From a virus (lineage: Duplodnaviria > Heunggongvirae > Uroviricota > Caudoviricetes), in IMG/VR virus record IMGVR_UViG_3300032294_002926: 64,000 bases of DNA. The stretch is one strand, 5' to 3'. The translations under genes were made by a program, and so were the position numbers. The notes under the pieces are model-generated. The model ran no database searches. It saw only the letters and a program-made list of their open reading frames with translations, and was not told the origin of the DNA. Shown here one piece after another: positions 23,025 through 43,856 of the stretch (its first letter is position 1; the number at the start of each line of letters is the position of its first letter).

Positions 23025-23085
23025 CGGGATTGATTTTAAATGGTATTATATGTCAGTGACTTTAAAAACCTACTCTTAAAATTCT

Positions 23086-23565: not shown

Positions 23566-23632
23566 TTACTGTCCTAAGAATTTTCAGAGATCTTTAAGAA
23601 TCACTATACTATCTTTAAATTAAACTTCAATC

Positions 23633-24534: not shown

Positions 24535-24535
24535 T

Positions 24536-24609
24536 ACCCAATTAGATCAGCGGACTAGAGTACTTGGTTACGACCCAAGGTGCCCCAGGTTCAAATCCTG
24601 GATTGGGTG
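24536..24609 (+). tRNA. tRNA-Arg (anticodon ACG)
   Basis: Acceptor acccaat/attgggt; anticodon arm cttgg-ttACGac-ccaag; T-arm ccagg-ttcaaat-cctgg. Body closely resembles bacterial tRNA-Arg(ACG). Confidence 0.75.
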
Positions 24610-24656
24610 TAGGGTGTTATGTTTTTCAGTTTCTCGATGCCCTCTAAAAATAGTAG

Positions 24657-24743
24657 AAACTGATATGGAAGTGTGGCAGAGTCTGGTTTATTGCGTTTGT
24701 CTTGAAAACAAATGAGGGTAACACCTCCACTAGTTCGAATCTA
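24657..24743 (+). tRNA. tRNA-Ser (anticodon UGA), type II
   Basis: Acceptor ggaagtg/cacttct; anticodon arm tttgt-cuUGAaa-acaaa; long variable arm; T-arm ctagt-tcgaatc-(ctag). Confidence 0.75.
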
Positions 24744-24759
24744 GTCACTTCTGCTTACT

Positions 24760-25365
24760 TTATAATTTATTAAATATAATATTTTCTATTATATTTAAAA
24801 TCTTTATAAAGTTTTGAATTTTATTGTACTTTATCCAAGATGTATCTATGACGCAAAGTTCAATCTTTTCTTCTAGACAAGACTGAAACTTACGATTATC
24901 GTTATTTTGGATTTGATTCAATTTTTCTTGCCCATATATAGGTTCATAATGAAAAATTCCGTTAAGTTCAAACGCCAATTTGAGTTCAGGTATATAAATG
25001 TCTAATTCGGAATTGATAGCATCTTTTCGATTGAAAAGAAACTCATAGGAATACCTTTTGGTCAATTCTTCTTGTAAGAATAACTCTAGTTTGGAAACTC
25101 TTGTTCCTTGAGTTTTGTGAGTATTGTTATAAGTTGCAGCACAACTTCTGGAACAAAAATCATTTTTTGTTTTCTTTTGGTCTACCGGTCTTTTGTAAAA
25201 TTTTTTTCCGCAGTATTTACACTCTTTTATATTGTTTTTTCTATCACTTCTTTGATGATTATTGAAACAATCTCTGGAGCAAAAATTTCTATTTTTAGTT
25301 CTTTTAATTTCATATGGTGCTTTTTTAAAAATTTTATTACAGTGTAGACATTTTACGTCTATCAT
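24760..25365 (-). CDS. Putative homing endonuclease: N-terminal tandem Cys4 zinc fingers plus a C-terminal Vsr/DUF559-like PD-(D/E)xK domain; same family as ORF 1166..1882
   Basis: CLHCNK..CSRDC and CKYCGK..CSRSC; ELDIYIPELKLAFELNGIFHYEP...IELCVID parallels FIPDINLIIEYHGFRFHDN of the ORF in the intein gap. Opposite strand, embedded among tRNA genes. Confidence 0.55.
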   Translation of the reverse strand: MIDVKCLHCNKIFKKAPYEIKRTKNRNFCSRDCFNNHQRSDRKNNIKECKYCGKKFYKRPVDQKKTKNDFCSRSCAATYNNTHKTQGTRVSKLELFLQEELTKRYSYEFLFNRKDAINSELDIYIPELKLAFELNGIFHYEPIYGQEKLNQIQNNDNRKFQSCLEEKIELCVIDTSWIKYNKIQNFIKILNIIENIIFNKL

Positions 25366-25444
25366 TTATAATATAAGGAAAGTGATGTATTATTTATATA
25401 TTTTCAATTCTTTTACTTTCCGTTAATATTTAAAATTTCATTAT

Positions 25445-25520
25445 GGCGTAGTAGACAAATTGGATAAAGTCTCCACACTTTCAATGTGGATTTTTGAGGG
25501 TTCGAGTCCCTTCTACGCTT
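25445..25520 (+). tRNA. tRNA-Glu (anticodon UUC)
   Basis: Acceptor ggcgtag/ctacgct (G1-U72); anticodon arm ccaca-cuUUCaa-tgtgg perfect; T-arm gaggg-ttcgagt-ccctt. Confidence 0.6.
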
Positions 25521-25642
25521 TTTAGGTTTCTAGATAACCTAAACGTATAAGATTATCGTTAAATCTTCGACGACCTCCTCACAGTGTCGTAATATGCGAG
25601 GTGCTTAACGTTAAGATTGTTCCTCTTTATTGGGGAACTTCA

Positions 25643-25714
25643 CCAGGAGTAAGTCAGAGGTAGACGGCACCGTTTGGGGCGGTGAAGGCATTGGTTCGAT
25701 CCCAATCTTCTGGA
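25643..25714 (+). tRNA. tRNA-Pro (anticodon UGG)
   Basis: C1-G72 acceptor ccaggag/cttctgg; anticodon arm caccg-uuUGGgg-cggtg; T-arm attgg-ttcgatc-ccaat. Confidence 0.65.
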
Positions 25715-25790
25715 CTTGAAGAATACTAGTAAAACTTCAACCGATTTTACATGCGTCGGATAATATTCTAAAATATAGAATGCATTGTGT

Positions 25791-25875
25791 GCTGGAGTTA
25801 GCGTAGAGGTCGAACGCACGGCACTTGTAACGCCGCTCCGAAAGGACACCGCAGGTTCAAATCCTGTCTCCAGCT
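25791..25875 (+). tRNA. tRNA with a long variable arm (type II-like); anticodon loop CUUGUAA, so isotype unresolved (UGU/Thr by register, GUA/Tyr if shifted); anticodon stem has an A31-C39 mismatch
   Basis: Perfect 7-bp acceptor gctggag/ctccagc; T-arm gcagg-ttcaaat-cctgt; 15-nt variable region ctccgaaaggacacc; loop identical to T4 tRNA-Thr CUUGUAA. Confidence 0.5.
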
Positions 25876-27711: not shown

Positions 27712-28248
27712 ATGACTATTAATAAAACAATTCTGTTGAACACCGATTCTTACAAGTTTTCGCAATACAATCAATATCCCGAAGGGACTACGAATGTATA
27801 TTCCTATGTAGAAAGTCGTGGAGGTACTTGGAACCAAACTGTTTTCTTCGGACTTCAAATCTTTCTGAAAGAGTATCTGTCTAATCCTATTACTCAGGAT
27901 GATATTGATACCGCAGAACTTATTACTCAAGCACACGGAGAACCTTTCAATCGTGAAGGTTGGGAGTATATTCTTCGTGAACACGGTGGTAAGTTGCCTA
28001 TTCGTATTAAAGCAGTTCCCGAAGGTTCTGTAATTCCTGTAAAGAATGTTCTTGCGACTGTTGAGAACACTGACCCTCAATGTGCCTGGATTACAAGTTA
28101 CATTGAGACTTCACTTCTCAGGAGTATTTGGTATGGAACTACTGTTGCTACCAACTCTTATGAGAGCAAGAGGATTATTCACGATTACTTGGTGAAGACT
28201 GGAGACCCAAGTTTGATTGAGTTCAAACTGCACGATTTCGGTGCTTAA
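27712..28248 (+). CDS. nadV: Nicotinamide phosphoribosyltransferase (NadV/NAMPT), exon 1; reading frame runs into an in-frame stop inside the intron
   Basis: LLNTDSYKFSQY...KLHDFG aligns with the NAMPT N-terminus up to the conserved HDFG(Y/A)RGVSS junction. Confidence 0.8.
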   Translation: MTINKTILLNTDSYKFSQYNQYPEGTTNVYSYVESRGGTWNQTVFFGLQIFLKEYLSNPITQDDIDTAELITQAHGEPFNREGWEYILREHGGKLPIRIKAVPEGSVIPVKNVLATVENTDPQCAWITSYIETSLLRSIWYGTTVATNSYESKRIIHDYLVKTGDPSLIEFKLHDFGA

Positions 28249-29171
28249 TTAACTTCGGGCACCTAACTTTGTGAACTGCTGGAACCCCTAAGTTGCTTAG
28301 GTAATATGGAAATCAGCATCCAAGACTACTATTTTAGTAGTAAGGTTCAGAGACCATCGAAAAGGTTATTTACAAATAACACTTAGTAGAGTACACTCAA
28401 GCGAGTGGAAGCGCAAAGGCGATACTATGTATCGTAAGATATGGTCCAATCTTCATTGAAAAATGAAGCAGTTCATACTCAGCATAAATACTTCCAGACC
28501 AAAATTGTAAAATATTTATGTTGAAACTATTAGAAACTATACCTAGTTTAGAAACATTTAAGGGGTATTCGATTTCAGATGATGGTAGAATCTTTTCACA
28601 TAAGACTAACAAATTTCTGAAAACGAGTATAAGAATGGGAAATGGATGTGCTTATGGAAGAATTGGATTAAACGATTCTAACGGAATCCGTAAAACAATT
28701 TCAATTCATAGACTCGTTTGTTTAGCATTTAAATATAACCCCAACCACAAAAATCTAACTGTGAATCACATAGACGAAAACACTTTTAATAATCATATTG
28801 ATAACTTAGAGTGGATGCCTCTTTCTGAAAACATTAGATATTCTCAGGCAAACAAAAGTTATGTCGGAGACCCAGATAAACTTACATTAGAGTTTAATGA
28901 AGGAAACTACACGGTACAGGAGTTTGCCAAAAAGTATAATACTCCATTAAATACTATGTGGGATATTCTAAACAAATTAGGTTCAGTCAAAAACAACAAA
29001 AAAAGAAGAGTCTTTGGTAAAAAAATACGACTTGAAATTGCTTTAATGAGAAAATCAGGAAAAGCACTAAAAGAAGTATCTGAAAAGTATCAATGTTCTC
29101 AATCTTTTGTTTCTTTAGTTTTTAAAGAGTATGAACGGGGTATGCTTAGCGAACATGCCTGAATAACTCCG
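28246..29171 (+). mobile_element. Putative group I intron (~0.92 kb) splitting nadV, carrying an HNH homing endonuclease ORF
   Basis: The NAMPT alignment breaks after LHDFG(A) and resumes at RGVSSFESAGIGG ~925 nt later. ~270 nt non-coding structured leader; boundaries follow U (5') and G (3'). Confidence 0.55.
28518..29162 (+). CDS. HNH homing endonuclease (HNH_3 / AP2-domain type, I-HmuI-like) inside the nadV intron
   Basis: SIHRLVCLAFKYNPNHKNLTVNHIDENTFNNHIDNLEWMP is the HNH_3 core; C-terminal helix-turn-helix-like basic tail. Confidence 0.7.
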   Translation: MLKLLETIPSLETFKGYSISDDGRIFSHKTNKFLKTSIRMGNGCAYGRIGLNDSNGIRKTISIHRLVCLAFKYNPNHKNLTVNHIDENTFNNHIDNLEWMPLSENIRYSQANKSYVGDPDKLTLEFNEGNYTVQEFAKKYNTPLNTMWDILNKLGSVKNNKKRRVFGKKIRLEIALMRKSGKALKEVSEKYQCSQSFVSLVFKEYERGMLSEHA

Positions 29172-29177
29172 CGAGGA

Positions 29178-30014
29178 GTGTCCTCTTTTGAGTCTGCTGG
29201 TATCGGTGGTCTCGCACACCTTGTAAACTTCAAGGGAACGGATACAGTCACCGCTCTTCTTTACGGTAAAGAATACTACGACATTTATATGGCAGGATTC
29301 TCTATTCCCGCCAGTGAACATAGTACCTGCACCTCTTGGGGTAGGGAAGGTGAAGAAGATTCTTACCGTAATATGGTAAAACTCTACGGCAAACCTGGTT
29401 CTCTATTTGCTTGCGTAAGTGATAGTTATAACATTTACGATGCTTGTCATATGTGGGGCACTGTGTTAAAGGATGATATAATCAACTCTGGTGCAACTCT
29501 TGTAGTTCGCCCAGATAGTGGACATCCACCAGAAGTGGTAATAAATTGCCTTCAACTTTTAGACAAATATTTTGGACACACGATCAATGAGAAAGGATTC
29601 AAAGTTCTTAATTATGTTCGTGTAATTCAGGGTGATGGTATTACTCAAGATACGATTGACCGTATTCTTTATAGAGCAATGACTGCTGGTTATTCTTCAG
29701 ACAACATTGCTTTCGGTCAAGGTGGTAAACTGCTTCAGAGTATTGACCGAGACACTCAAAAGTTTGCTATGAAGTGTTCTTCTATTGAAGTTAACGGAGA
29801 GCAACGCGATGTCTATAAGAGTCCGATTACCGATATGGGTAAAGAATCCAAGAAAGGTCGTGTAACTCTCTATCGTAATGATGAAGGTTACTTCACCGAC
29901 TTGGAAGGTAGGACTGATGCGGTAGAAGTTCTTGAAACTGTATTTGAGAAAGGTGAACTGGTCAAAGAATATACCTTTGATGAGGTTCGTAAAAATGCTT
30001 CGGTGATTATCTAA
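29178..30014 (+). CDS. nadV: Nicotinamide phosphoribosyltransferase (NadV), exon 2 (true exon start ~29172 at Arg-Gly-Val; the tracked ORF starts at an internal GTG)
   Basis: [25 protein letters not shown]... matches the NAMPT C-terminal half through to the end. Confidence 0.8.
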   Translation: [278 protein letters not shown]

Positions 30015-31343: not shown

Positions 31344-31823
31344 ATGGAATTCGTCGAACCTCATTCTACTATATTAGTTTTAAATAGTTCATATGAACCA
31401 TTGAATTTTGTAAGTTGGAAAAGAGCAATTGTTTTACTTCTTAAAGAAAAAGCAAAATTGATTTCAAAAAGAACAATTCGTTTGATAAATTTTGTAAAAA
31501 TTCCATCTAAGAACTATAGAAATTATTTTCCAACAAAATCTCTAATTCATAAAAGAGATGATTTTCAGTGCCAATATTGCGGTGCTTATAGAAATCTTAC
31601 AATTGATCATGTAATACCCAAATCTAAGGGGGGTGGAGATACTTGGGATAATCTTGTTTGTTGTTGTTATCGTTGTAATATAAAAAAGGGTGATCTTTTA
31701 TTACATGAAACTGATATGATTCTTCATACCAGACCTTATTCACCTCTAAATCCCCTTCATTTGAAAATGGAAAGAAGTATGGTATCTGAATGGAAAGATT
31801 ATCTAATAGCATCAAAAACTTAA
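31344..31823 (+). CDS. HNH endonuclease (McrA/HNH_5-like)
   Basis: CQYCGAYRNLTIDHVIPKSKGGGDTWDNLVCCCYRCNIKKGD. Confidence 0.7.
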   Translation: MEFVEPHSTILVLNSSYEPLNFVSWKRAIVLLLKEKAKLISKRTIRLINFVKIPSKNYRNYFPTKSLIHKRDDFQCQYCGAYRNLTIDHVIPKSKGGGDTWDNLVCCCYRCNIKKGDLLLHETDMILHTRPYSPLNPLHLKMERSMVSEWKDYLIASKT

Positions 31824-32058
31824 TAGAAATTTCATTTTTCATGTGTGCACTTTTAAAACTGTCACACTGTTTTGATTAAACTTAAAATATGGTATATAAT
31901 ACCTAAGCACTATAAGATGAATCTTTGACTTTATCTGATGTGTAACTACCGAATTTTATTTCAATAATTTCTAAAAGTTTATTGAAATAAATATCATGAA
32001 GTAATAATGTCTAATACATAATTACTTCCCTTATACTATCGTTTAGTAAAAAATCTTT

Positions 32059-33561
32059 ATGAAACTTAATTCATTAATTCTTGCATCTGCTGTTCTTGGT
32101 TCAATTTTCCCAGTTTCTTCTAATGCATCTGAATTAAAAATTTCGGAAGTGTCTCAATACTCTTCTGATCAAGTAACAAGCATCTCTCAATTTAGTGATG
32201 TAAAACCAACGGATTGGTCGTATCAAGCACTGAGTAATCTTATTGAAAGGTATGGTTGCGTTGCAGGTTATCCGAATGGAACCTATGCTGGAAGTCAATC
32301 CATGACTCGCTATGAAGCAGCTGCTCTCTTGAATTCTTGCTTGGATAGAGTAACTGAAGTGACTGATGAACTTAAGAGACTTCTCACCGAATTTTCGAAA
32401 GAACTTTCTGTAATTCGAGGTCGAGTTGATGTTGCTGAAGCGAAAATTGGAGTACTTGAATCAAATCAATTTTCTACGACTACCAAACTTCGTGGAGAAT
32501 CTAGTTTTGTTCTTGGTGGTGTTCCAGGTGCTCGTCTCAATCCAACATCTCTTTATCAAAATGGTCAAAATGTAGGAAATACTGCATTTAATTATGATCT
32601 TCGTCTGAATTTTGATACATCGTTTAATGGTGAAGACTTGCTTCGTACTCGTATCCGATCGGGTAATTTTTCTTCTCAACCATTTGGTTCAAGTTCTTCT
32701 ATTCTGAAATTGGATAAAGCAGAAACCACGACTTCCAATTCAGCGATTATTGATCGCCTTTATTATAGTTTTCCCGCTCTTACTAAAGGTTTGACTCTTA
32801 CTGCTGGTCCACTGGTTCGTAATACTGAAATGGCATGGGTGCCTACTGCATATCGTTCGGAAATCTTGGATTTCTTTACTACTGCAGGTGTTCCAGGTGT
32901 TTATAATAAAGCAACTGGTTCTGGATTCGGCGCACAATGGGTTCAACCTGGAAAAAGAGGTTTTGTTGCGGGAGTGAACTATGTTGCTCAGAACGGTTCA
33001 GATTCATCCAAAGGTGTATTTGATGAAACTGGTGGGTTGAATGCAATGGTTCAACTTGGTTATCGTGCTCCTAACTATGGTATTGCATTCGGTTACCGTT
33101 ACGGTACTGAAGGGACAAGAGTTCGTACTTATAATGGTCCTTTGGGTGCAAGTGGTGTTCTTACTCCAGAGCAAACTTCGAACGGATATGGAGTGAATGC
33201 ATACTGGCAACCTTCTCAGGGTGGTACTCTTATGCCATCAATTAGTGCAGGATATGGATGGAATACTGTGAGTGATTCGACTTCGATTTCTAACAGTGCC
33301 ACGAATACATCTACGTGGTTTGCCGGACTCCAATGGAGTGACGTGTTTGTGAGTGGAAATTCTGCTGGCGTTGCATATGGTCAACCCGGAAATTATTCTG
33401 GTTTGAGTGATAAAGCATCTCTTCTTGAAATTTTCTATAAATTTAGAGTTGGGGACAATGTGAGTATCACTCCTGCAATCATCTATGTTCAAAATAATCA
33501 AGCATTTAAAGATGTAGAATCTAGATGGGGTGGGATCGTTCAGACGAAATTTACTTTCTAA
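32059..33561 (+). CDS. Cyanobacterial-type outer-membrane porin: signal peptide + SLH domain + OprB-like beta-barrel
   Basis: Signal peptide MKLNSLILASAVLGSIFPVSSNA; SLH motif FSDVKPTDWSYQALSNLIERYGCVAGYPNGTYAGSQSMTRYEAAALL; C-terminal Gly/aromatic-rich alternating beta-strands ending in a terminal Phe (QTKFTF). Confidence 0.6.
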   Translation: MKLNSLILASAVLGSIFPVSSNASELKISEVSQYSSDQVTSISQFSDVKPTDWSYQALSNLIERYGCVAGYPNGTYAGSQSMTRYEAAALLNSCLDRVTEVTDELKRLLTEFSKELSVIRGRVDVAEAKIGVLESNQFSTTTKLRGESSFVLGGVPGARLNPTSLYQNGQNVGNTAFNYDLRLNFDTSFNGEDLLRTRIRSGNFSSQPFGSSSSILKLDKAETTTSNSAIIDRLYYSFPALTKGLTLTAGPLVRNTEMAWVPTAYRSEILDFFTTAGVPGVYNKATGSGFGAQWVQPGKRGFVAGVNYVAQNGSDSSKGVFDETGGLNAMVQLGYRAPNYGIAFGYRYGTEGTRVRTYNGPLGASGVLTPEQTSNGYGVNAYWQPSQGGTLMPSISAGYGWNTVSDSTSISNSATNTSTWFAGLQWSDVFVSGNSAGVAYGQPGNYSGLSDKASLLEIFYKFRVGDNVSITPAIIYVQNNQAFKDVESRWGGIVQTKFTF

Positions 33562-33581
33562 AGAAAATTTTGTCTTCTTAA

Positions 33582-33610
33582 ACACCCTCTGAATCTGGGG
33601 GGTGTTTTTT
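33582..33610 (+). terminator. Rho-independent terminator after the porin gene
   Basis: acaccc-loop-gggtgt followed by T7. Confidence 0.5.
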
Positions 33611-33618
33611 TATAAATA
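33611..33618 (+). promoter_or_regulatory. T4-type late promoter box TATAAATA upstream of dps
   Basis: Exact match ~15 nt upstream of the ATG at 33634. Confidence 0.4.
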
Positions 33619-33633
33619 CATAAAAAAGGTGAA

Positions 33634-34077
33634 ATGGAAAAACTTTTTAAACTTTTGAGTGATTCTCAATCCACGCTTTTTGTACTTTTTCAAAAAACTT
33701 GGATGTATCATTGGAATGTAGTTGGTTCGGATTTTCAACAATTACATACTCTTTTTGGGGACCAATACGAAAAAATGTTTGAAGAGATTGATTCACTCAC
33801 TGAACATATGAGATACTTGGGTATTAAACCTGTAAGTACTCTTTCTAGAATTGTAGAAGTATCTCATATTGAGCAGGCTTCAAATAGTTCTCAGGAAATT
33901 GATTCCAGAGAAATGGTTAGACAATTAAGAGATGATAATAAAAAAATCATTGATTTATTTTCTAGTGTTTCTGAAGAAGCAGATAAGCAAAAACAATTTG
34001 CAACTTCAAATCTTGTTCAGAGTTTAATGGAAACTCATGGAAAATTTCTGTGGATGTTAAGATCAGTATTAGAGTAA
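33634..34077 (+). CDS. dps: Dps-family ferritin-like protein (DNA protection during starvation)
   Basis: LFVLFQKTWMYHWNVVGSDFQQLHTLFGDQYEKMFEEIDSLTEHMRYLG matches the Dps ferroxidase-site helices. Confidence 0.75.
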   Translation: MEKLFKLLSDSQSTLFVLFQKTWMYHWNVVGSDFQQLHTLFGDQYEKMFEEIDSLTEHMRYLGIKPVSTLSRIVEVSHIEQASNSSQEIDSREMVRQLRDDNKKIIDLFSSVSEEADKQKQFATSNLVQSLMETHGKFLWMLRSVLE

Positions 34078-34086: not shown

Positions 34087-34350
34087 ATGGAAAATTTAAA
34101 AGTTCAGTGTCGTTCTTGTGGCAAAGAAATTCAGGCATATTCAAATAAAACCGTAACTTGCGGATGTTCGAATATGACCACTATTTGTGGTGAGAAAATT
34201 TCCGCGATTGATTTGGCGAATGTTATTATGGTGACAGATCCCAAAAGTTTATTTTCATCGAAAACTAATGTTCTTTCAAATGAAGATATTCAATGGCAAG
34301 AAGAAAGAAAGAAAAGAAAAATTCGTAAAATAGATTTTGAAGAGAGATGA
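34087..34350 (+). CDS. Hypothetical small protein with a CxxC...C zinc-ribbon-like N-terminus
   Basis: CRSCGK...CGCSN..CGE. Confidence 0.35.
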   Translation: MENLKVQCRSCGKEIQAYSNKTVTCGCSNMTTICGEKISAIDLANVIMVTDPKSLFSSKTNVLSNEDIQWQEERKKRKIRKIDFEER

Positions 34351-36276: not shown

Positions 36277-37059
36277 GTGATTGGATTTAATTATCTCGGT
36301 CAACATGGTAGATTGGCTAATCAAATGTTTCAATATGCAGCATTGAGGGGGATTGCGGATTATAAAAATTATGAGTTTTGTATTCCACAAACTAATTATA
36401 ATGATAAGTGGAAGGATAATAAGCTTTTTGAAATCTTTGAATTAAAAAATCTTGAGAATATTTGTTATTTACCTGGACAATTTTATCAAGAAAGACAGTA
36501 CCATTATGATGAAGAATATGTTCAAAATTGCCCTGATAATGTAAATTTGCATGGATATTTTCAGACTGAAAAATATTTCAAGCATATCGAGGATAGCATA
36601 AGAGAAGATTTTACTTTTAAGGAATATATACTAGAACCTTGCACTAAAAATTTTAATTTTGATGAAATTATTGCTTTACATGTAAGAAGAACTGATTATG
36701 TCTATAATTCAATAAATCATCCTCTATGTGATATAAATTATTATGATATGGCATTAAAACATTTTGACGATACTATTCCTGTAATGATTTTTTCTGATGA
36801 TATTGAATGGTGTAATATGCAAAATATATTTAAGTCAGATAGATTTTTGGTATCAGAATCATATAATACATATATTGATTTGTGTTTAATGAGTATGTGT
36901 CATTATCATATTATTGCTAATAGTTCTTTTAGTTGGTGGGGTGCATGGTTAGCTAAATCTAAAAAAGTAATAGCTCCCCAAAAATGGTATGGAACTACTG
37001 GCGATACTTCTAAAAATAAAACTCACGATCTTTATTTAAATGAGTGGATTGTTATATGA
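36277..37059 (+). CDS. Glycosyltransferase family 11 (alpha-1,2-fucosyltransferase-like)
   Basis: N-terminal GRLANQMFQYAALRGIA is the GT11 signature (GRLGNQMFQYA). Confidence 0.6.
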   Translation: MIGFNYLGQHGRLANQMFQYAALRGIADYKNYEFCIPQTNYNDKWKDNKLFEIFELKNLENICYLPGQFYQERQYHYDEEYVQNCPDNVNLHGYFQTEKYFKHIEDSIREDFTFKEYILEPCTKNFNFDEIIALHVRRTDYVYNSINHPLCDINYYDMALKHFDDTIPVMIFSDDIEWCNMQNIFKSDRFLVSESYNTYIDLCLMSMCHYHIIANSSFSWWGAWLAKSKKVIAPQKWYGTTGDTSKNKTHDLYLNEWIVI

Positions 37060-37895
37060 GTAATAAAATTGATTTGTCGAAATTAACTTTTTTAATTCCC
37101 ATCAGAATTGATTCTGACGATAGAATTAGAAATATAATTACTGTTCTTTGTTATCTTTTAAAAAATTTTAATACCAATATAATTTTAAAAGAAGTTGATA
37201 ATGAAAAATATTTTCAGAGTTATGCTCTACCTCAGATTAAAGAATTTGTAGAAGATGATATTAATCAATTAGATTATATTTTTGAGAAATCAAATGATCC
37301 TGTTTTTTATAGAATGCAAATCATAAATGAAATGTTGGAACGATCGAAAACTGAAGTTATTGTTAATTATGATTGTGATGTTCTACTAAAACCGGATACT
37401 TATATAAAGTGCTATAATCTAATTATAGATAAAACTTACGATGTAATATATCCTTATGGATTTGGTTATTATCAAAAACAAATTTATGCTAATGATGAAC
37501 TCGTAAGTGAATTTTTAAATAATAATTTTAATTTTTCAATTTTAGAACAACAACAAAATACTGAAATCTCTCAGTATGGACATGTCCAATTTTTTAATAG
37601 AAGAGTTTATATTGAAGGTGGGATGGAAAATGAAAATTTTCGAGGATCTTCACCGGAAGATAAAGAAAGATTTTTTAGATTTAATAAATTAGGATACAAT
37701 GTTGGTAGAATAGATGATCATGTTTATCATTTGGAACATAGTAGAGGCGATAATTCTTGGCCAGTTTCATATCAAAAGAATCCATATATGAAAGAAAATC
37801 TTGAATTGTGGGACTTTTTACAGAGATTGGATAAAAAACAACTTATTAATTACTATACTAGTCAAAAATATTTGAGAAAATATTCTGAGGAATAA
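37044..37895 (+). CDS. Putative glycosyltransferase (family not assigned)
   Basis: Lies within the glycosylation cluster; LTFLIPIRIDSDDR resembles a GT-A N-terminal beta-strand/DxD region. Confidence 0.35.
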   Translation: MDCYMSNKIDLSKLTFLIPIRIDSDDRIRNIITVLCYLLKNFNTNIILKEVDNEKYFQSYALPQIKEFVEDDINQLDYIFEKSNDPVFYRMQIINEMLERSKTEVIVNYDCDVLLKPDTYIKCYNLIIDKTYDVIYPYGFGYYQKQIYANDELVSEFLNNNFNFSILEQQQNTEISQYGHVQFFNRRVYIEGGMENENFRGSSPEDKERFFRFNKLGYNVGRIDDHVYHLEHSRGDNSWPVSYQKNPYMKENLELWDFLQRLDKKQLINYYTSQKYLRKYSEE

Positions 37896-37898
37896 TTT

Positions 37899-39485
37899 AT
37901 GTGGAATTTAGTTACTTTTTCTTATGGCGGAAATATTTTTTCAAATTATCAAAAATTTATTTCCAATTTATTGAAAAGTCAGGGATTAAAATCTTTTGAG
38001 TATGATGTTGAATTTTTAAAAAATACTGAAGTATATAAAAATAACGTAGAATACTTTACAGAAAACAACAAATATGGTTGGTGTTCTTGGAAACCAATTT
38101 TATTACTTGAGACCATGAAAGTATTAGACGATGGAGACAAAATTCTTTTATGTGACGTTGAAGATCTTTTTCATCCAGAAATATTTAATTATGTTGATTC
38201 CGTAATGGAAGATGATCCATGTCTTTTTGTTTTGGGATTTGATAAAAATAAAAAGACTACGAAAAGAGATTGTTTTGTTTTTATGGATTGTGATGATGAA
38301 GATTATTGGAATTCTCCACAACTTGAGGCTGGAGTTACTTTTTGGAAAGTATGTGATGAATCTAAGAGAATCATAAATGAGTGGTTGAAATGGTGTTTAG
38401 ATGAGAGAGTTAATGGAGAAGATTCACATTTCTCTCAAAAAGAAAATTTTCCTGAATTTTCTGGATATTCATCAAAAGATCAAAGTATTTTAACAAATTT
38501 GGCAATAAAAGAAGGTCTTTTTGTCGATAATGGTACTATTAGAAATTACATGGAATGTAATGCTGATTATTGGTATGATAGATATTTTGATAATAAAGTA
38601 AACATATATAGACCCATTGATCAATATATGATTCAAATTCAGAATCAGTGTCCCTATATAAAAGGAAATTTAATTAAACATAGTCTAGTTCTTACAGTTC
38701 ATAATAAAGAGTTTTTAATTAAAAAAGTTATAGATGGAATTGTAAACAACACTACTGGCGATTATGAGTTAATCTTAGTGTTTGATGGATGCATTGATCA
38801 ATCTGAAAAAATTGCTTCTGATATGTTAGAGAACATTGATATAGATTATAAGATATTATATGCATCTGATGTATTCGAAACCAAATCAAATAATATTGGA
38901 TTGAGGGAATGTACTGGTAGATATGCAATTATCATTCAAGATGATATGGTAATTCAGGAACTCGGATGGAATCGTAGAATGCAAAAACCATTCCTAAAGT
39001 TTGATGATGTATTTGCTGTTACTGCTAGAACATCTCACAATTGGATTTATAATGAAGATTCGAAACATATTGGAATGCTTGAGAATCTTGATAATTGCTA
39101 TTGTGATATATTAATACACTGTGATCATTCGGATAAATCTAATACACCAAGAGATACTTTTTCTGTCAGAGGATCTGTAAATAGAGGACCTTTAATGATG
39201 AATCTTGACGATCTTAAAACTTTAAATTATTTTGATGAGGAATACGCTCCGCTTGATATGGATGATCATGATCTTATGTTTAGGGCAAGAACTGAACTTA
39301 ATAAAGTTTGTGGATGTTATTGGATCAATTATCAATCAGAGAGTGAATGGGGTGGTACAAGAATTAATGGATTCCCTGCTCCATGGTATTTAAAATCTCA
39401 ACATAAAAATGTTAAAATATTTTATGATAGATACAAAGATGTTTTGGAATCTTATAGAATTATTGAAAACAGAAAGGTTAGTTAA
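37899..39485 (+). CDS. Large glycosyltransferase with a GT2-like (GT-A fold) domain
   Basis: SLVLTVHNKEFLIKKVIDGIVNNTTGDYELILVFDGCIDQS (GT2 N-terminal signature and DxD). Confidence 0.5.
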   Translation: MWNLVTFSYGGNIFSNYQKFISNLLKSQGLKSFEYDVEFLKNTEVYKNNVEYFTENNKYGWCSWKPILLLETMKVLDDGDKILLCDVEDLFHPEIFNYVDSVMEDDPCLFVLGFDKNKKTTKRDCFVFMDCDDEDYWNSPQLEAGVTFWKVCDESKRIINEWLKWCLDERVNGEDSHFSQKENFPEFSGYSSKDQSILTNLAIKEGLFVDNGTIRNYMECNADYWYDRYFDNKVNIYRPIDQYMIQIQNQCPYIKGNLIKHSLVLTVHNKEFLIKKVIDGIVNNTTGDYELILVFDGCIDQSEKIASDMLENIDIDYKILYASDVFETKSNNIGLRECTGRYAIIIQDDMVIQELGWNRRMQKPFLKFDDVFAVTARTSHNWIYNEDSKHIGMLENLDNCYCDILIHCDHSDKSNTPRDTFSVRGSVNRGPLMMNLDDLKTLNYFDEEYAPLDMDDHDLMFRARTELNKVCGCYWINYQSESEWGGTRINGFPAPWYLKSQHKNVKIFYDRYKDVLESYRIIENRKVS

Positions 39486-39556
39486 AAAATAATAACTCTA
39501 TTTTACTAAATTTATTAAAATGATTAAGGATAAACTTCAAATGGATTTAAATTAAT

Positions 39557-40171
39557 ATGAAAATATCTAGAGAAAGATGGGAATATGCTCAAAGAGCAGA
39601 AATTTCTGAATTGAATGAAAGTACTGATCCTGGAGAAAAAGCATATAAGTATGCTGTAGAAGTAACTTTTAATCTTCTTGGTGCAGATTTACAAAAAGAT
39701 TTCAAAGATAAAGTTATTGTTGAAGTTGGTTGCGGATTTTACCCAGCTCTTCTTTGGACAAAAGATACCAAAAGATCTATTGGCGTCGATCCATTATTTA
39801 ATCAATGGCCTAAAAAATATATTGATAGGTGTAATGAGGCTAGAATTGAAATGATTTCTCATCCATATGAGGATCTTGAGATTGATGAGGATGTTGATGA
39901 AACCTGGTTTTTCAATTGTTTCCAACATGTTATTTCACCTGAAGAACAAATGATAAAATCTATGGAAACTTCTAAAGTTGTCCGTATTTTTGAACCAATT
40001 GGATGGGGGAATGGACTAAATTTAACTGAAAATGATGCTCATCCTCATATTATCACTAAAGAAACTATAATAGATATTATGGGGGATTTTGGATTTGTTT
40101 ATACGGCAAATTCGGTAGAAAAATTTCACCAAGCTGAATGTTATTACGGGACATGGAGTAAAACTAAATGA
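39557..40171 (+). CDS. Putative SAM-dependent methyltransferase-like protein (paralog A)
   Basis: VIVEVGCGFYPALL is a motif I-like glycine loop. Confidence 0.4.
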   Translation: MKISRERWEYAQRAEISELNESTDPGEKAYKYAVEVTFNLLGADLQKDFKDKVIVEVGCGFYPALLWTKDTKRSIGVDPLFNQWPKKYIDRCNEARIEMISHPYEDLEIDEDVDETWFFNCFQHVISPEEQMIKSMETSKVVRIFEPIGWGNGLNLTENDAHPHIITKETIIDIMGDFGFVYTANSVEKFHQAECYYGTWSKTK

Positions 40172-40761
40172 AAATCACTGAAGAACGTTGGGTACAAGCT
40201 CAAGAAGAAGAATTGAGATTGTCTTCTATTAATATTGATCCCAAATATTATGAGATGATGTATTTTACAATGGCAAAATTGATGAATATTGATTTTGATA
40301 CTGATTTTATCGGTAAATCAATAATTGAGATTGGACCAGGACCATTGGGTGTCACTCTCTTAACTGAGAAGTTTTCTAAGGCTATAATTGTTGAACCATT
40401 GATTTATAAATGGGGTCAAGAATACGTAAATCTTTACATGGAAAAAAATATCATTATTGAAACAACTCCTTATGAAAATTTGACAATTGAGGAAAAGGTA
40501 GATGAAACTTGGTTTTTTAATGTTCTTCAACACGTAATTGATCCAGAATTGCAACTAAGAAAAGCGAAAGAGACTTCAAAGGTAGTTAGAATTTTTGAAC
40601 CCATTAATTATCCTATTGAATTAGCCCACCCACATTTGTTGACAAAAGATTTATTTACTGGAATTTTTGGTGAAGATTTTGGCACTACTTACATTGGAAG
40701 TTCAATACCAAATTTTCATACAGCAGATTGTTATTATGGAACTTGGATTAATCCTGGGTGA
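40168..40761 (+). CDS. Putative SAM-dependent methyltransferase-like protein (paralog B, tandem duplicate)
   Basis: IIEIGPGPLGVTLL; shared C-terminus ...ETWFFN..QHVI.PE...K..ETSKVVRIFEPI...HPH..TKE....FG..CYYGTW. Confidence 0.4.
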   Translation: MKITEERWVQAQEEELRLSSINIDPKYYEMMYFTMAKLMNIDFDTDFIGKSIIEIGPGPLGVTLLTEKFSKAIIVEPLIYKWGQEYVNLYMEKNIIIETTPYENLTIEEKVDETWFFNVLQHVIDPELQLRKAKETSKVVRIFEPINYPIELAHPHLLTKDLFTGIFGEDFGTTYIGSSIPNFHTADCYYGTWINPG

Positions 40762-40764
40762 TCT

Positions 40765-41712
40765 ATGTACATAGCATCATGCCCTCTTAGAGTTTCTTTA
40801 TTTGGTGGATCAACAGACAATCCTTATTTTGTGGAAAAATTTGGATATGGATCTGTGATTAGTTTTACTTGTAATCTTAAAACTTATGTAACTATTAGTC
40901 AAGATAAATTTGGATTTAATAGTTATCAGCGCAAATATATTGTCAATTACTCAATAAGAGAAGAAGTGTCCAATATTCATGAGATAAAAAATGATGTGGT
41001 TAGAGTAGTTCTTGATTATTTCAATATGCCTCCAGTTCAAGTAACGCTTACAAGTGATGCATATTCTCAAGGTAGTGGTCTCGCATCTTCATCTTCTTAT
41101 ATTATTAGTTTGATTAAGGCATGTATTCTTTTTCTTGACATTCGTATGACGGATATAGAGATCTGTAAACTTGCCTATGAATTAGAATTGAAATTTAATT
41201 CATATTGTGGATATCAAGATCCTTACGGTTGTGGGATTGGTGGATTTAAAAAAATTGAATTTATTAGGGGTGGAGGTGTTAAATATGATTTTCTCTCCAC
41301 TAAAATGTTTAATAATTATGATGCTCATTTAGTTTTTACTGGAGTTACAAGAAACTCAAAAAATGTTTTAAAAGATATTACAGATAATATCGATAAAGCA
41401 AAACCACTTTTGGGTACACTTGACAAATCCTATAATGCAATTATGCAAGATGATTATGGAACTTTTTTAAATTATCTGAATAAAAGTTGGATTCAAAAAA
41501 AACATACTAGTTCAACTATTACTGAAAACTTAATTATTAAAAATATGGATCAATTTTTGAGTGAAAATGGGACTGTAATATCTCATAAATTATGTGGTGC
41601 GGGTAATGGTGGATTTTTTCTTGTTTTCTCTGAAAAAGGAAACTTGAATATTTCCTATCAATCTGTTAAAATAGATGTAACACCTAATGGAGTTTCTGGG
41701 AAAATGCTATGA
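40765..41712 (+). CDS. GHMP-family sugar kinase (D-glycero-D-manno-heptose 7-phosphate kinase HddA-like)
   Basis: PLRVSLFGGSTDNPYF N-terminal motif; SQGSGLASSSS ATP-binding P-loop of GHMP kinases. Confidence 0.6.
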   Translation: MYIASCPLRVSLFGGSTDNPYFVEKFGYGSVISFTCNLKTYVTISQDKFGFNSYQRKYIVNYSIREEVSNIHEIKNDVVRVVLDYFNMPPVQVTLTSDAYSQGSGLASSSSYIISLIKACILFLDIRMTDIEICKLAYELELKFNSYCGYQDPYGCGIGGFKKIEFIRGGGVKYDFLSTKMFNNYDAHLVFTGVTRNSKNVLKDITDNIDKAKPLLGTLDKSYNAIMQDDYGTFLNYLNKSWIQKKHTSSTITENLIIKNMDQFLSENGTVISHKLCGAGNGGFFLVFSEKGNLNISYQSVKIDVTPNGVSGKML

Positions 41713-42212
41713 ATCCATTTATAGAATATATTGAAGCACTTCAGGGTGCTCATATAGAAGAAGAGTTTGAAAAATTTTATAATGCATTTATCTCTTATTC
41801 AAGAATTATTATTCTCGGTAATGGCGGAAGTAATTCTGTGGCGTCTCATATTTCGCAAGATTATATGAAGTTTCATGGAAAAAAGGTATCTATTCTTTCT
41901 GATCCTTCAATGCTAACCATGTTGACAAATGATTTTGGATATGAGAATGCTTATCAAAAGTTTTTAGAGTATTATGTTGAAAAAGATACACTTGTAATTA
42001 TTGTGAGTTCTGGTGGGGAGTCTAAAAATATGATAAATTCTCAGAAATGGTGTGAAAAAAACAATGTTCCATATGGGGTTCTGACTGGTTTTAAACCGGA
42101 TAATACACTAAGAAAAACTTCAACAAATTCTCTATGGAATTACTATATTAGTAGTTATGATTATGGTGTCGTAGAATGTGTACATCAAATTTTTCTTCAC
42201 GGAGTAGTATGA
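41709..42212 (+). CDS. gmhA: Sedoheptulose-7-phosphate isomerase (SIS domain, GmhA)
   Basis: ILGNGGSNSVASHISQD matches GNGGSAADAQH of GmhA. Confidence 0.65.
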   Translation: MNPFIEYIEALQGAHIEEEFEKFYNAFISYSRIIILGNGGSNSVASHISQDYMKFHGKKVSILSDPSMLTMLTNDFGYENAYQKFLEYYVEKDTLVIIVSSGGESKNMINSQKWCEKNNVPYGVLTGFKPDNTLRKTSTNSLWNYYISSYDYGVVECVHQIFLHGVV

Positions 42213-42964
42213 GATATTGTTTTGATATTGATGGTACTCTTTGTGATACTCCAAATAATGAATTCGGCAAACCTGATTATATGAACGCAAAACCTGTTTC
42301 ATTTATGGTGGAACAAGTTAACCGTTTATATCATGAAGGTCATTATATTATTATGCAAACTGCAAGAGGTAAAGGATCCGGTATAGATCATACGGACCTT
42401 ACTAAAAGTCAATTAGATGAATGGGGGTACAAATATCATGAGTTATTTCCCATGTTCTCTAAACCAACTGCAGATATTTTTGTAGATGATAAAGCAATAA
42501 ATGTGGAAGATTGGAAAAAAATGCAACCATTGAAGTCCGGAATTATTGCTGGTGCATTCGATATAATTCACCCTGGATATATCCGTATATTTAAAGAATC
42601 TAAATTTTATTGTAATCATTTAACTGTGGCACTTCATGAAGATCCTTCTACAGAAAGATTAATTAAATTAAAACCAGTTCAAACAGTAGAAGAAAGAAAA
42701 GAAATACTTCAAAGTATTAAATACATTGATAAAATAGTTACATATAAAGTAGAAAATGAATATCTTGACTATTTGAAGAGTGGTAATTATAATGTTAGAT
42801 TCTTGGGTACAGATTATAAGACAAAAATTTATTCTGGATCAGAGATACCAATTGATATTGTGTGGTTGGACAGAGAATCGCATGATTATTCTTCAACTAG
42901 ATTGAAGAATCAAATTTATGAATCCATAAAAGCAAAAAAAGAACAAATTAAAAAATATGACTAA
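42176..42964 (+). CDS. Bifunctional HAD-like phosphatase / heptose-1-phosphate nucleotidyltransferase (cytidylyltransferase fold, HldE domain II-like)
   Basis: N-terminal FDIDGTLCD (HAD motif I); C-terminal IIAGAFDIIHPGYIRIFKESK (GxFDxxHxGH nucleotidyltransferase). Confidence 0.55.
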   Translation: MCTSNFSSRSSMRYCFDIDGTLCDTPNNEFGKPDYMNAKPVSFMVEQVNRLYHEGHYIIMQTARGKGSGIDHTDLTKSQLDEWGYKYHELFPMFSKPTADIFVDDKAINVEDWKKMQPLKSGIIAGAFDIIHPGYIRIFKESKFYCNHLTVALHEDPSTERLIKLKPVQTVEERKEILQSIKYIDKIVTYKVENEYLDYLKSGNYNVRFLGTDYKTKIYSGSEIPIDIVWLDRESHDYSSTRLKNQIYESIKAKKEQIKKYD

Positions 42965-43856
42965 AAGTTTAGTAACTGGTGGTGCTGGATTTATTGGATC
43001 TAATTTAGTAGATTCATTAATTGATCTCGGGCATGAAGTTATTGTAATTGATAATGAGAGTGCTGAGTGTAATGAAAAATTTTATTGGAATGATAAAGCA
43101 AAAAATTATAAATTAGATATTTGTGATTACGAATTTACTAGAGACTTGTATAATGATGTAGATTATGTCTTTCATCTTGCAGCTGAATCAAGACTTCAAC
43201 CTGCAATTTTAAATCCAATTAATGCAGTGATAAAAAATACTGTAGGTACTTGTACTGTTCTTCAATGTTCTAGAGAGTCTGGAGTTAAAAAGGTAATGTA
43301 TTCATCTACATCTTCTGCTTATGGTCTGAACAAATTTCCAAATTATGAAACTGATCCCAATGATTGTTTGAATCCATATTCAGTATCAAAAGTTTCTGGT
43401 GAAGAACTTTGCAAACTTTATACGAAAATGTATGGATTGAAAACAATTATTTTTAGATATTTTAACGTTTACGGTGATCGATCTCCAACTACAGGACAAT
43501 ATGCACCAGTTATTGGAATTTTTAAGAGGCAAAAAGAAAATAATCAATCATTGACTATCGTTGGTGATGGTCTTCAACGTCGAGATTTTGTAAATGTTAA
43601 AGATGTTGTTGATGCAAATATTATGGTAATGTCTGCTGATATTGCAGATTTTTGTTATGGTGAAGTTTATAATATTGGTAGTGGAGTAAATATTTCAATT
43701 TTAGAAATTGCTAAAATGATATCCGATGATTATATTCATCTTCCATCAAGAGACGGTGAAGCAAGGACAACACTTGCTAATATTGATAAGATGAAAAAAA
43801 CTTTTGGATGGTATCCAAAAATAAACATACTGGATTGGATTAATGGACAAAAATAA
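42957..43856 (+). CDS. NAD-dependent sugar-nucleotide epimerase/dehydratase (SDR family)
   Basis: LVTGGAGFIGSNLVDSL Rossmann motif; YSVSK catalytic YxxxK. Confidence 0.75.
   Translation: MTKSLVTGGAGFIGSNLVDSLIDLGHEVIVIDNESAECNEKFYWNDKAKNYKLDICDYEFTRDLYNDVDYVFHLAAESRLQPAILNPINAVIKNTVGTCTVLQCSRESGVKKVMYSSTSSAYGLNKFPNYETDPNDCLNPYSVSKVSGEELCKLYTKMYGLKTIIFRYFNVYGDRSPTTGQYAPVIGIFKRQKENNQSLTIVGDGLQRRDFVNVKDVVDANIMVMSADIADFCYGEVYNIGSGVNISILEIAKMISDDYIHLPSRDGEARTTLANIDKMKKTFGWYPKINILDWINGQK

What the first reader, a model, noticed from the sequence alone, without database searches (positions are those of the whole stretch)
33634..34077. Dps-family ferritin encoded by the phage, driven by a T4-type late promoter
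Clear Dps ferroxidase-helix signature (HWNVVGSDFQQLHTLF…EEID…). An exact TATAAATA box lies directly upstream. A phage-borne Dps could protect replicating DNA from photo-oxidative/Fenton damage during infection of an oxygenic phototroph, or sequester iron. It lies between the porin and the hli genes, that is, in a stress/AMG-like neighbourhood.
Basis: partly seen in the sequence, partly recalled or inferred. Interest (0 to 1): 0.6.

Follow-up and report, generated by a model that had tools for sequence, protein, structure and literature searches.

The report
Late-expressed Dps mini-ferritin in freshwater cyanophage
A T4-like phage of freshwater picocyanobacteria carries its own Dps iron-detoxifying mini-ferritin behind a conserved late-gene promoter and next to a phage iron-uptake porin. 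This is a real and well-conserved feature, but it is a new member of an already known kind of phage gene.

Summary
ORF 33634-34077 (+) encodes a 147-aa Dps: it scores 81.6 bits on Pfam PF00210, matches solved Dps proteins over its full length (E 1e-17), and the AlphaFold model matches only Dps structures (TM 0.80-0.84). The four direct ferroxidase ligands (H26, H38, D53, E57) and W27 are invariant. The fifth canonical residue is an invariant Gly (G42), and two of three pore aspartates are lost (F122, N126). The protein is acidic and has no Lys-rich tail, so it probably does not condense DNA.

The TATAAATA box (33611-33618) follows a terminator hairpin directly. The motif is not enriched in the window overall. 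However, NATAAATA sits 21-30 nt before the start codon in 58 of 60 distinct homologous loci, whatever lies upstream, and in the window it clusters before gene starts (p = 2e-8). Relatives that carry Dps encode gp55.

The gene belongs to a large clade found almost only on viral contigs: at least 569 IMG/VR contigs and one isolate, S-SRM01, where it is annotated but not discussed. dN/dS is about 0.1. It occupies the island slot that holds pstS in marine relatives and lies beside an "iron uptake porin". The most likely role is buffering of labile iron and H2O2 late in infection. It is a new member of a known kind and of moderate interest.

The parts
31986..31993 (+). AATAAATA, a candidate late-promoter box 73 nt upstream of the porin gene
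   Evidence: Motif list. It was not tested comparatively.
32059..33561 (+). Phage-encoded outer-membrane porin (SLH + OprB domains; SomB-like 'iron uptake porin' family)
   Evidence: Pfam SLH 1e-08 and OprB 3.9e-13. NCBIfam NF033921 por_somb 'iron uptake porin', 265 bits against a cut-off of 100. A homolog lies within 4 kb upstream of Dps in 27 of 45 related loci that have a full upstream flank.
33580..33607 (+). Intrinsic-terminator-like hairpin (12 pairs, 5 G-C) followed by a T-run. It ends the porin transcript and abuts the promoter box.
   Evidence: Terminator scan and the sequence itself.
33611..33618 (+). TATAAATA, a T4-type (gp55-dependent) late-promoter box. The predicted transcription start is about 33624-33625.
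   Evidence: Exact match. NATAAATA at -21 to -30 in 58 of 60 distinct homologous upstream regions. In the window, 14 of 22 plus-strand copies lie 15-60 nt before gene starts, p = 2e-8 against same-composition 7-mers. No sigma-70-like site lies upstream.
33626..33631 (+). Shine-Dalgarno-like AAGGTG. The GGT at -7 to -5 is shared with most homologs.
   Evidence: Sequence. This is inference.
33634..34077 (+). Dps (mini-ferritin) CDS, 147 aa. Ferroxidase codons: H26 33709-33711, W27 33712-33714, H38 33745-33747, D53 33790-33792, E57 33802-33804. Atypical G42 at 33757-33759.
   Evidence: dN/dS about 0.11.
34087..34350 (+). Conserved 87-aa CxxC...CxC zinc-ribbon-like protein with a basic C-terminus (PHROG 8074; T4-GC 244 of P-SSM2). 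It starts 9 nt after the Dps stop codon and is probably co-transcribed. It is a backbone gene of cyanomyoviruses, not a Dps-specific partner.
   Evidence: It is present downstream of Dps in 74 of 76 loci. It is also present in Dps-less marine cyanomyoviruses.

Best explanation
The ORF encodes a functional, phage-adapted Dps. Dps is a four-helix-bundle mini-ferritin that is expected to assemble into a 12-mer cage, oxidise Fe2+ (preferentially with H2O2) at inter-subunit ferroxidase centres, and store the Fe3+ inside. It is transcribed from its own T4-type late promoter (TATAAATA, read by host RNA polymerase carrying phage gp55/gp33). This happens when phage DNA is being replicated and packaged, while photosynthesis still runs and host iron proteins are being dismantled. 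Because it is acidic and lacks a Lys-rich tail, it most likely protects chemically, by lowering labile Fe2+ and peroxide and so suppressing Fenton chemistry, rather than by coating DNA. It probably works together with the adjacent phage-encoded iron-uptake porin as an iron-handling module of a freshwater cyanomyovirus lineage.

Shown here: Dps identity and fold, conservation of the four direct iron ligands, purifying selection, positional conservation of the promoter box, the upstream terminator, and confinement of the clade to viral contigs.

Inferred: 12-mer assembly, enzymatic activity, late timing, the physiological role, and coupling to the porin.
For: Identity: PF00210 at 81.6 bits; solved Dps proteins at E 1e-17 over residues 5-146; AlphaFold model with pLDDT 84 showing helices A, B, BC, C and D; the top 50 Foldseek PDB hits are all Dps, TM 0.80-0.84.

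Active site: H26, W27, H38, D53 and E57 are invariant in the clade, and H26, H38, D53 and E57 are invariant across 22 Dps down to 31% identity. They map onto E. coli H51, W52, H63, D78, E82 and Listeria H31, H43, D58, E62. This is the canonical ferroxidase centre, not the His-type centre as defined in PMC6675082.

Selection: median dN/dS 0.11 over 47 pairs. More than 1000 protein clusters and at least 569 IMG/VR contigs.

Promoter. NATAAATA is the documented cyanomyovirus late promoter, and all cyanomyoviruses sequenced at the time of that review carry g55, g33 and g45 (PMC2984593). S-SRM01 has gp55 and gp33 homologs. UViG 3300044632_001003 carries both Dps and gp55.

No DNA-binding tail: helix A starts at residue 2; pI 5.4, 16 K+R against 22 D+E.

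Iron context: the porin belongs to NCBIfam 'iron uptake porin'. The SLH/OprB porin Slr1908 is needed for normal iron content in Synechocystis (PMC8707739). The porin lies within 4 kb upstream in 27 of 45 loci.

Precedent: DPS in Gratiaviridae and Lactobacillus phages is interpreted as oxidative-stress protection (PMC8008677), and ferritin is listed among ROS defences of freshwater phages (PMC6802176).
Against: No expression, assembly or activity data exist for this clade.

The fifth canonical ferroxidase residue (E. coli D67) is an invariant Gly (G42), and the next position varies between G, E and D. Two of the three aspartates that line the iron-entry pore in Listeria Dps are F122 and N126. 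Iron entry or B-site chemistry may therefore differ or be weakened.

If transcription starts 6-7 nt after the box, the leader is only about 9-10 nt.

TATAAATA is not over-represented in the window as a whole.

gp55 is not inside this 64-kb window, so its presence in this particular genome is inferred from relatives.

The porin is not always adjacent: 18 of 45 loci lack it within 4 kb.
Confidence: 0.6

Rival explanations
1. It serves iron supply rather than protection. The phage uses the porin to raise iron influx and uses Dps as a reservoir. The stored iron would feed phage iron enzymes made during infection, such as the di-iron NrdB and D1, which are encoded in this window, or would load iron into progeny particles.
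For: The adjacent porin belongs to the 'iron uptake porin' family. The window encodes nrdA/nrdB and psbA. The slot is occupied by the nutrient-uptake gene pstS in P-SSM2 and S-SKS1, which suggests a nutrient-acquisition island. Late expression coincides with virion assembly.
Against: Dps cages are small stores of about 500 Fe (PMC6675082), and release is slow compared with a lytic cycle. RNR is needed before late genes are expressed. There is no evidence that Dps is in virions. Loss of two pore aspartates argues against optimisation for rapid iron traffic. The mechanism overlaps largely with the best explanation, since the biochemistry is the same and only the benefit differs.
Confidence: 0.2
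2. It is a DNA-binding or nucleoid-compacting Dps. It would coat phage DNA physically, or compact host DNA as part of takeover, as E. coli Dps does in stationary phase.
For: The family name and database annotations say so ('DNA binding protein' in PHROG 3636; 'starvation-inducible DNA-binding protein'). HP-NAP, one of the closest solved relatives, is reported to bind DNA through surface charge without a tail (own knowledge).
Against: There is no N- or C-terminal extension, since helix A begins at residue 2 and helix D ends at 146 of 147. Net charge is about -6 and pI is 5.4. Tail-less acidic Dps such as the Listeria protein do not bind DNA (own knowledge of the Dps literature). Coating DNA late in infection would interfere with packaging.
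Confidence: 0.08
3. It has been repurposed, either as a cage or scaffold or as a metal or oxidant sensor. It would keep the Dps fold and A-site ligands but no longer mineralise iron efficiently. Possible uses are binding another metal (Zn, Mn, Cu) or countering a host ROS-based defence.
For: The clade shows invariant departures from canonical Dps at G42, F122 and N126. The protein falls far below the NCBIfam cut-offs for cyanobacterial DpsA (48 against 300 bits) and E. coli-type Dps (37 against 114 bits). The nearest non-clade relatives are at most 45% identical.
Against: All four direct iron ligands and the radical-trapping Trp are invariant under strong purifying selection. Gly at the D67 position followed by D/E/N also occurs in the nearest short Dps outside the clade, so it may be a subfamily trait compatible with activity.
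Confidence: 0.1

Closest known systems
[quoted passage not shown]
   Same: It is 49.7% identical over the full length. It has the same gene order, porin ... Dps then the orf87 homolog, and TATAAATA at -28. The genome encodes gp55 and gp33 homologs.
   Different: It is only half identical, so the window phage belongs to a different and uncultured branch: there is no megablast match to any GenBank phage. In S-SRM01 a tRNA and two small ORFs separate the porin from Dps. The gene appears only in a supplementary table of the S-SRM01 paper and is not discussed.
Tail-less bacterial Dps: P. aeruginosa PA0962 (8ff9), H. pylori HP-NAP (1ji4), B. subtilis MrgA (2chp), Listeria Dps (1qgh), T. elongatus Dps (2c41)
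   Same: They share the length (about 145-155 aa), the A-B-BC-C-D helix architecture, and the canonical His/His + Asp/Glu ferroxidase ligands with the conserved Trp.
   Different: Identity is only 22-30%. G42 replaces the D/E that holds the B-site water. F122 and N126 replace two pore aspartates. The gene is encoded by a lytic phage and driven by a late phage promoter rather than by OxyR, PerR or sigma-S.
Phage-encoded Dps of Lactobacillus plantarum myoviruses, Gratiaviridae/Flandersviridae gut phages, Escherichia phage ECBP2 group and Bacillus phage G (PHROG 3636)
   Same: These are Dps-family proteins carried by virulent phages. They fall in the same PHROG and are interpreted in the literature as protection from iron and oxygen stress (PMC8008677).
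   Different: Identity is 23-30%. The hosts and ecology are unrelated (anaerobic gut and lactic-acid bacteria against an oxygenic phototroph). None of the papers read here describes a late promoter or a porin neighbour.
pstS in Prochlorococcus phage P-SSM2 and Synechococcus phage S-SKS1
   Same: pstS occupies the same genomic slot, directly upstream of the conserved orf87 / T4-GC 244 gene and before the nucleotide-sugar cluster. It is a niche-specific nutrient-stress gene in the flexible island of a T4-like cyanophage.
   Different: It is an unrelated protein and nutrient (a periplasmic phosphate-binding protein), found in the marine rather than the freshwater lineage.

Membership tests
Dps (mini-ferritin branch of the ferritin-like superfamily) | Sequence profile match above the curated threshold | tested here: met
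   PF00210 scores 81.6 bits against a cut-off of 24.5 and covers residues 6-147. There are 74 solved chains matched at E <= 1, and the best are all Dps.
Dps (mini-ferritin branch of the ferritin-like superfamily) | Four-helix bundle with a short BC helix in the long crossover loop | tested here: met
   The AlphaFold2 model has helices 2-28, 34-61, 70-77 (low confidence), 91-118 and 122-146, with pLDDT 84 and pTM 0.79. The top 50 Foldseek PDB hits are all Dps, TM 0.80-0.84.
Dps (mini-ferritin branch of the ferritin-like superfamily) | Inter-subunit ferroxidase centre: two His on one subunit, Asp + Glu on the partner | tested here: met
   H26, H38, D53 and E57 are invariant in alignments A1, A2 and A4. 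They align with E. coli H51, H63, D78 and E82.
Dps (mini-ferritin branch of the ferritin-like superfamily) | Fifth canonical ferroxidase residue (Asp/Glu at E. coli position 67, the water-mediated B-site ligand; PMC6675082) | tested here: not met
   G42 is invariant in the clade, and position 43 varies between D, E and G. The same Gly is seen in the nearest short Dps outside the clade.
Dps (mini-ferritin branch of the ferritin-like superfamily) | Acidic 3-fold 'ferritin-like' pore (Listeria D121, D126, D130) | tested here: inconclusive
   Only D117 (= Listeria D121) is kept; F122 and N126 replace the other two. The conserved E114/E115 nearby might compensate. A 12-mer model is needed to decide.
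Dps (mini-ferritin branch of the ferritin-like superfamily) | Dodecameric cage, ferroxidase activity, iron core | not testable with these tools
   Only a monomer model was made. This needs multimer modelling or biochemistry.
DNA-binding Dps (E. coli type) | Lys/Arg-rich flexible N- or C-terminal tail, or a basic surface | tested here: not met
   No extension is present. pI is 5.4, with 16 K+R against 22 D+E. The protein scores below the NCBIfam Dps equivalog cut-off, 36.6 against 114 bits.
Cyanobacterial DpsA (host-type) / host-derived AMG | Close similarity to a host (picocyanobacterial) Dps | tested here: not met
   NCBIfam cyanobacterial DpsA equivalog scores 48 bits against a cut-off of 300. 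A clade-motif scan of 185,579 species genomes found only two contigs of about 1 kb from MAGs. Outside the clade, identity is at most 45% and all hits are metagenomic. Caveat: the genome scan was motif-based, and no explicit phylogeny with Synechococcus Dps was built.
T4-type late promoter (gp55/gp33-dependent) | TATAAATA / NATAAATA box a short distance upstream of the gene, with no -35 element | tested here: met
   There is an exact box at 33611-33618. No sigma-70-like site was reported upstream of the gene. The consensus is as described for cyanomyoviruses (PMC2984593).
T4-type late promoter (gp55/gp33-dependent) | Positional conservation beyond chance | tested here: met
   The box is present in 58 of 60 distinct homologous upstream regions at -21 to -30, despite different upstream neighbours. 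In the window, 14 of 22 plus-strand boxes lie 15-60 nt before gene starts, against 12% for same-composition 7-mers (p = 2e-8).
T4-type late promoter (gp55/gp33-dependent) | The genome encodes the late sigma factor gp55 (and gp33, gp45) | tested here: inconclusive
   This is met in Dps-bearing relatives: S-SRM01 and UViG 3300044632_001003, which has gp55 at 94% identity plus Dps on one 205-kb contig. It is not found inside this 64-kb window, and the rest of this genome was not available.
T4-type late promoter (gp55/gp33-dependent) | Late transcript timing and a start site 6-7 nt after the box | not testable with these tools
   This needs infection time-course RNA-seq or 5' mapping.

The most novel reading that the evidence does not exclude
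The porin and Dps together form a viral iron-economy module specific to freshwater cyanomyoviruses. It would consist of a phage-made iron-uptake porin that opens the outer membrane to iron late in infection, and a modified Dps (Gly at the B-site position, de-acidified pores) that captures the iron. The module would have swapped into the same island slot where marine relatives carry the phosphate gene pstS. That would be the first case of a phage taking over both acquisition and sequestration of a trace metal, with consequences for iron cycling when cells lyse.
Probability: 0.2. Interest if true: 0.6.

Novelty: new member of a known kind. Interest (0 to 1): 0.35.

Why it matters
Phage-borne Dps genes are already on record, and the idea that freshwater phages carry ferritin-type ROS defences has been published. 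The gene as such is therefore not a surprise.

This analysis adds four points:
- The cyanophage version is a large, strongly conserved clade found almost only on viral contigs.
- It has its own conserved late promoter.
- It sits in the nutrient-gene island slot that marine relatives use for pstS.
- It is frequently paired with an iron-uptake porin.

Together these make a concrete and testable case that iron and peroxide handling late in infection is under selection in freshwater picocyanobacterial phages. A cultured system, S-SRM01 and its Synechococcus host, is available to test it.

Tried and rejected
1. Window-wide enrichment of TATAAATA as evidence for the promoter. This was rejected because there are 6 copies against 10.75 expected. 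It was replaced by positional and comparative tests.

2. The tightly linked downstream gene orf87 (Zn-ribbon-like, basic C-terminus) as a Dps-specific partner or DNA-tethering adaptor. This was rejected because the same family is a backbone gene in 67 phage records, including Dps-less marine cyanomyoviruses (P-SSM2, S-RSM4, S-SKS1). Dps was simply inserted upstream of it.

3. Recent capture from the host. No close cellular homolog was found. The only two genome hits are contigs of about 1 kb in MAGs, one of them a Vulcanococcus MAG, and these are most simply binned phage fragments.

4. Megablast of 5 kb around the gene against GenBank phages gave no match, so the window phage is not a sequenced isolate.

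5. A genome scan with the broad alignment A2 failed for lack of a conserved stretch. It was repeated with A3, which restricts the result to clade-like sequences.

6. Adjacency to hli. The only hli-type ORF is 10.9 kb away.

7. An Rfam scan of the window found no RNA element at or near the Dps gene.

8. A literature search found no paper that discusses a cyanophage Dps.

Full report
**What is there.** The ORF at 33634-34077 (+) starts with ATG, encodes 147 aa and contains the quoted string.
- It matches Pfam PF00210 at 81.6 bits against a cut-off of 24.5, over residues 6-147.
- It matches PHROG 3636 at E 8.6e-35.
- It matches solved Dps proteins over its full length: P. aeruginosa PA0962 at 1.2e-17, HP-NAP at 6e-16, B. 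subtilis MrgA, and Listeria, Thermosynechococcus and E. coli Dps further down the list.
- An AlphaFold2 model (pLDDT 84, pTM 0.79) has the A-B-(BC)-C-D helix layout.
- Its 50 best Foldseek matches in the PDB are all Dps, with TM 0.80-0.84.

The Dps identification is secure.

H26, W27, H38, D53 and E57 are invariant in 16 and 20 clade members. H26, H38, D53 and E57 stay invariant when Dps proteins down to 31% identity are added.

BLASTP against E. coli and Listeria Dps places these residues on H51/W52/H63/D78/E82 and on H31/H43/D58/E62.

By the definitions in PMC6675082 this is a canonical centre, not the cyanobacterial His-type centre. Three departures are invariant in the clade:
- G42 stands where canonical Dps have the Asp/Glu that holds the B-site water (E. 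coli D67).
- F122 and N126 stand where Listeria has two of its three pore aspartates. Only D117 is kept.

Their meaning is unknown. A Gly at the D67 position also occurs in the nearest short Dps outside the clade.

**DNA binding.** The protein has no terminal extension, because the helices span residues 2-146. It is acidic, with pI 5.4 and 16 K+R against 22 D+E. The Lys-tail mechanism of E. coli Dps is therefore absent, and physical DNA coating is unlikely.

**Promoter.** The 72-nt intergenic region has three elements:
- A terminator-like hairpin at 33580-33607 followed by a T-run.
- The exact TATAAATA at 33611-33618.
- An AAGGTG just before the ATG.

No sigma-70-like site was found there. The box by itself is not significant, since the window holds 6 copies against 10.75 expected. 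Two other tests are significant.

First, on the plus strand 14 of 22 NATAAATA copies lie 15-60 nt upstream of a gene start. That zone covers 5% of the window and holds 12% of same-composition 7-mers, giving p = 2e-8.

Second, I collected 80 IMG/VR loci plus the isolate S-SRM01. In 58 of 60 distinct upstream sequences, NATAAATA (mostly TATAAATA) sits 21-30 nt before the Dps start codon. The sequence further upstream varies. It is a tRNA gene in 46 of 77 loci, and a terminator or something else in the rest.

NATAAATA is the documented late promoter of T4-like cyanophages, all of which carry g55, g33 and g45 (PMC2984593). S-SRM01 has gp55 and gp33 homologs. One 205-kb viral contig carries both a gp55 homolog and the Dps. 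gp55 is not within this window.

Late timing is therefore well supported by inference but has not been measured. If the start site follows the T4 rule, the leader would be only about 9-10 nt long.

**Who carries it.** The window is part of a T4-like cyanomyovirus. It encodes psbA preceded by a PhotoRC-II RNA, an hli gene, nrdA/nrdB, a T4-type terminase domain, a tail fibre and 9-10 tRNAs. It has no megablast match in GenBank phages.

The Dps belongs to a large clade:
- More than 1000 protein clusters at 65-100% identity, on contigs up to 250 kb.
- At least 569 IMG/VR contigs.
- Among 50,697 GenBank phage records, only S-SRM01 among the cyanophages, at 49.7% identity.

In 1.84 billion representative proteins the score drops sharply after the clade, and everything else is at most 45% identical and known only from metagenomes. 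A clade-motif scan of 185,579 species genomes found only two contigs of about 1 kb from MAGs, one from Lake Lanier and one from a Vulcanococcus MAG. The protein is far below the NCBIfam cut-offs for cyanobacterial DpsA and E. coli-type Dps.

It is thus an old, viral-lineage gene rather than a recent host copy. Pairwise dN/dS is about 0.11, with dS near saturation, so it is under strong purifying selection. The freshwater or estuarine bias is suggested by S-SRM01 (a Singapore reservoir), by the two MAG sources and by the absence of the gene from marine isolates. I could not check sample metadata.

**Neighbourhood.** The upstream gene (32059-33561) is an SLH + OprB porin. It scores 265 bits on NCBIfam NF033921 'iron uptake porin'. 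SLH/OprB porins contribute to iron uptake in Synechocystis (PMC8707739). A porin homolog lies within 4 kb upstream of Dps in 27 of 45 loci that have a full flank.

The downstream 87-aa Cys-rich gene follows Dps in 74 of 76 loci. It is also present in Dps-less marine cyanomyoviruses, so it is a backbone gene and not a partner. In P-SSM2 and S-SKS1 the slot just upstream of that gene holds pstS, and in S-RSM4 it holds tRNAs.

Dps therefore occupies a flexible nutrient-gene slot of the cyanomyovirus island. The hli gene (44947-45066) is 10.9 kb away, beyond a glycan-biosynthesis cluster.

**Mechanism.** The best-supported reading is a late-expressed mini-ferritin that does not bind DNA. It would remove Fe2+ and H2O2 from the infected cell while phage DNA is replicated and packaged, and it is probably coupled to the phage iron porin.

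The rivals are:
- Iron supply for phage enzymes or for virions.
- Physical DNA coating.
- A repurposed cage with altered metal chemistry.

The first rival shares the same biochemistry and differs only in the benefit to the phage. The second is disfavoured by charge and architecture. The third is kept alive by G42, F122 and N126.

**Comparison with what is known.** Phage-encoded Dps are documented in Lactobacillus phages and in Gratiaviridae and other gut phages, where they are interpreted as oxidative-stress protection (PMC8008677). Ferritin is listed among ROS defences of freshwater phages (PMC6802176). S-SRM01's copy is annotated in GenBank and in a supplementary table but is not discussed. 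I found no paper on a cyanophage Dps.

**Verdict.** It is a new member of a known kind. The conserved late promoter, the confinement of the clade to viral contigs, the pstS-equivalent slot and the iron-porin pairing are the new points. Interest is moderate (0.35).

Noticed in passing
window 27712-30014 (+): The nicotinamide phosphoribosyltransferase (NAMPT) gene is split. The N-terminal domain ORF is at 27712-28248. A group I intron (Rfam RF00028, 61 bits) follows at 28184-28468, then a NUMOD4 + HNH homing-endonuclease ORF at 28518-29162, then the NAPRTase part at 29178-30014. A contig with a 100% identical Dps (L002) has an uninterrupted 465-aa NAMPT, so the intron/endonuclease insertion is polymorphic.
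   Followed up: partly
window 32059-33561 (+): This is a phage-encoded outer-membrane porin with an N-terminal hydrophobic segment that looks like a signal peptide (read by eye, not tested) and SLH and OprB domains. It scores 265 bits on NCBIfam 'iron uptake porin' (SomB-like). It is 68% identical to the S-SRM01 porin and recurs in about 60% of related loci. An AATAAATA lies 73 nt upstream.
   Followed up: partly
window 34087-34350 (+): This 87-aa protein has an invariant RCxxC...CGC motif and a basic C-terminus (QE.R..RK.R..FE.R). It is conserved across marine and freshwater cyanomyoviruses (67 phage records; T4-GC 244 in P-SSM2; PHROG 8074). Its function is unknown.
   Followed up: partly
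window 50381-52266 (+): A PhotoRC-II RNA motif (RF01717, 55.6 bits) lies at 50381-50478, directly upstream of psbA (50518-51597). A GIY-YIG + NUMOD3 homing-endonuclease ORF (51670-52266) lies just downstream.
   Followed up: no
window 21073-22254 (+): The phage encodes a full-length tyrosyl-tRNA synthetase (PF00579, E 7e-70), next to clusters of tRNA genes at 20258-25875.
   Followed up: no
window 53221-54048 (+): This ORF of 275 aa has only the N-terminal (ATPase) domain of the T4-type large terminase. The next ORFs are a metallophosphoesterase (54195-54896) and an HNH endonuclease (54937-55272), not the nuclease half. The terminase may be split or interrupted.
   Followed up: no
window 48070-48189 (+): Rfam reports a tRNA-like match of 120 nt (39.7 bits) that ARAGORN did not call. 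It may be an intron-containing or degenerate tRNA.
   Followed up: no
window 36277-44634 (+): This 8-kb cluster encodes glycosyltransferases (GT11, GT2, GT25), a GHMP kinase, a SIS-domain protein, a cytidylyltransferase and a GDP-mannose-dehydratase-type epimerase. It looks like an LPS/glycan-modification island between Dps and hli. In strain L002 a methyltransferase and an epimerase occupy the start of this region instead.
   Followed up: no
window 18553-19149 (+), 31344-31823 (+), 54937-55272 (+): There are further free-standing homing-endonuclease-type ORFs (LAGLIDADG, HNH, HNH). The window holds at least five such genes in 64 kb.
   Followed up: no
window 46342-47856 (+) and 48490-50025 (+): There is a DUF2828/DUF7788 protein of 504 aa and an SPFH/Band-7 protein of 511 aa, of unknown role in the phage.
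   Followed up: no
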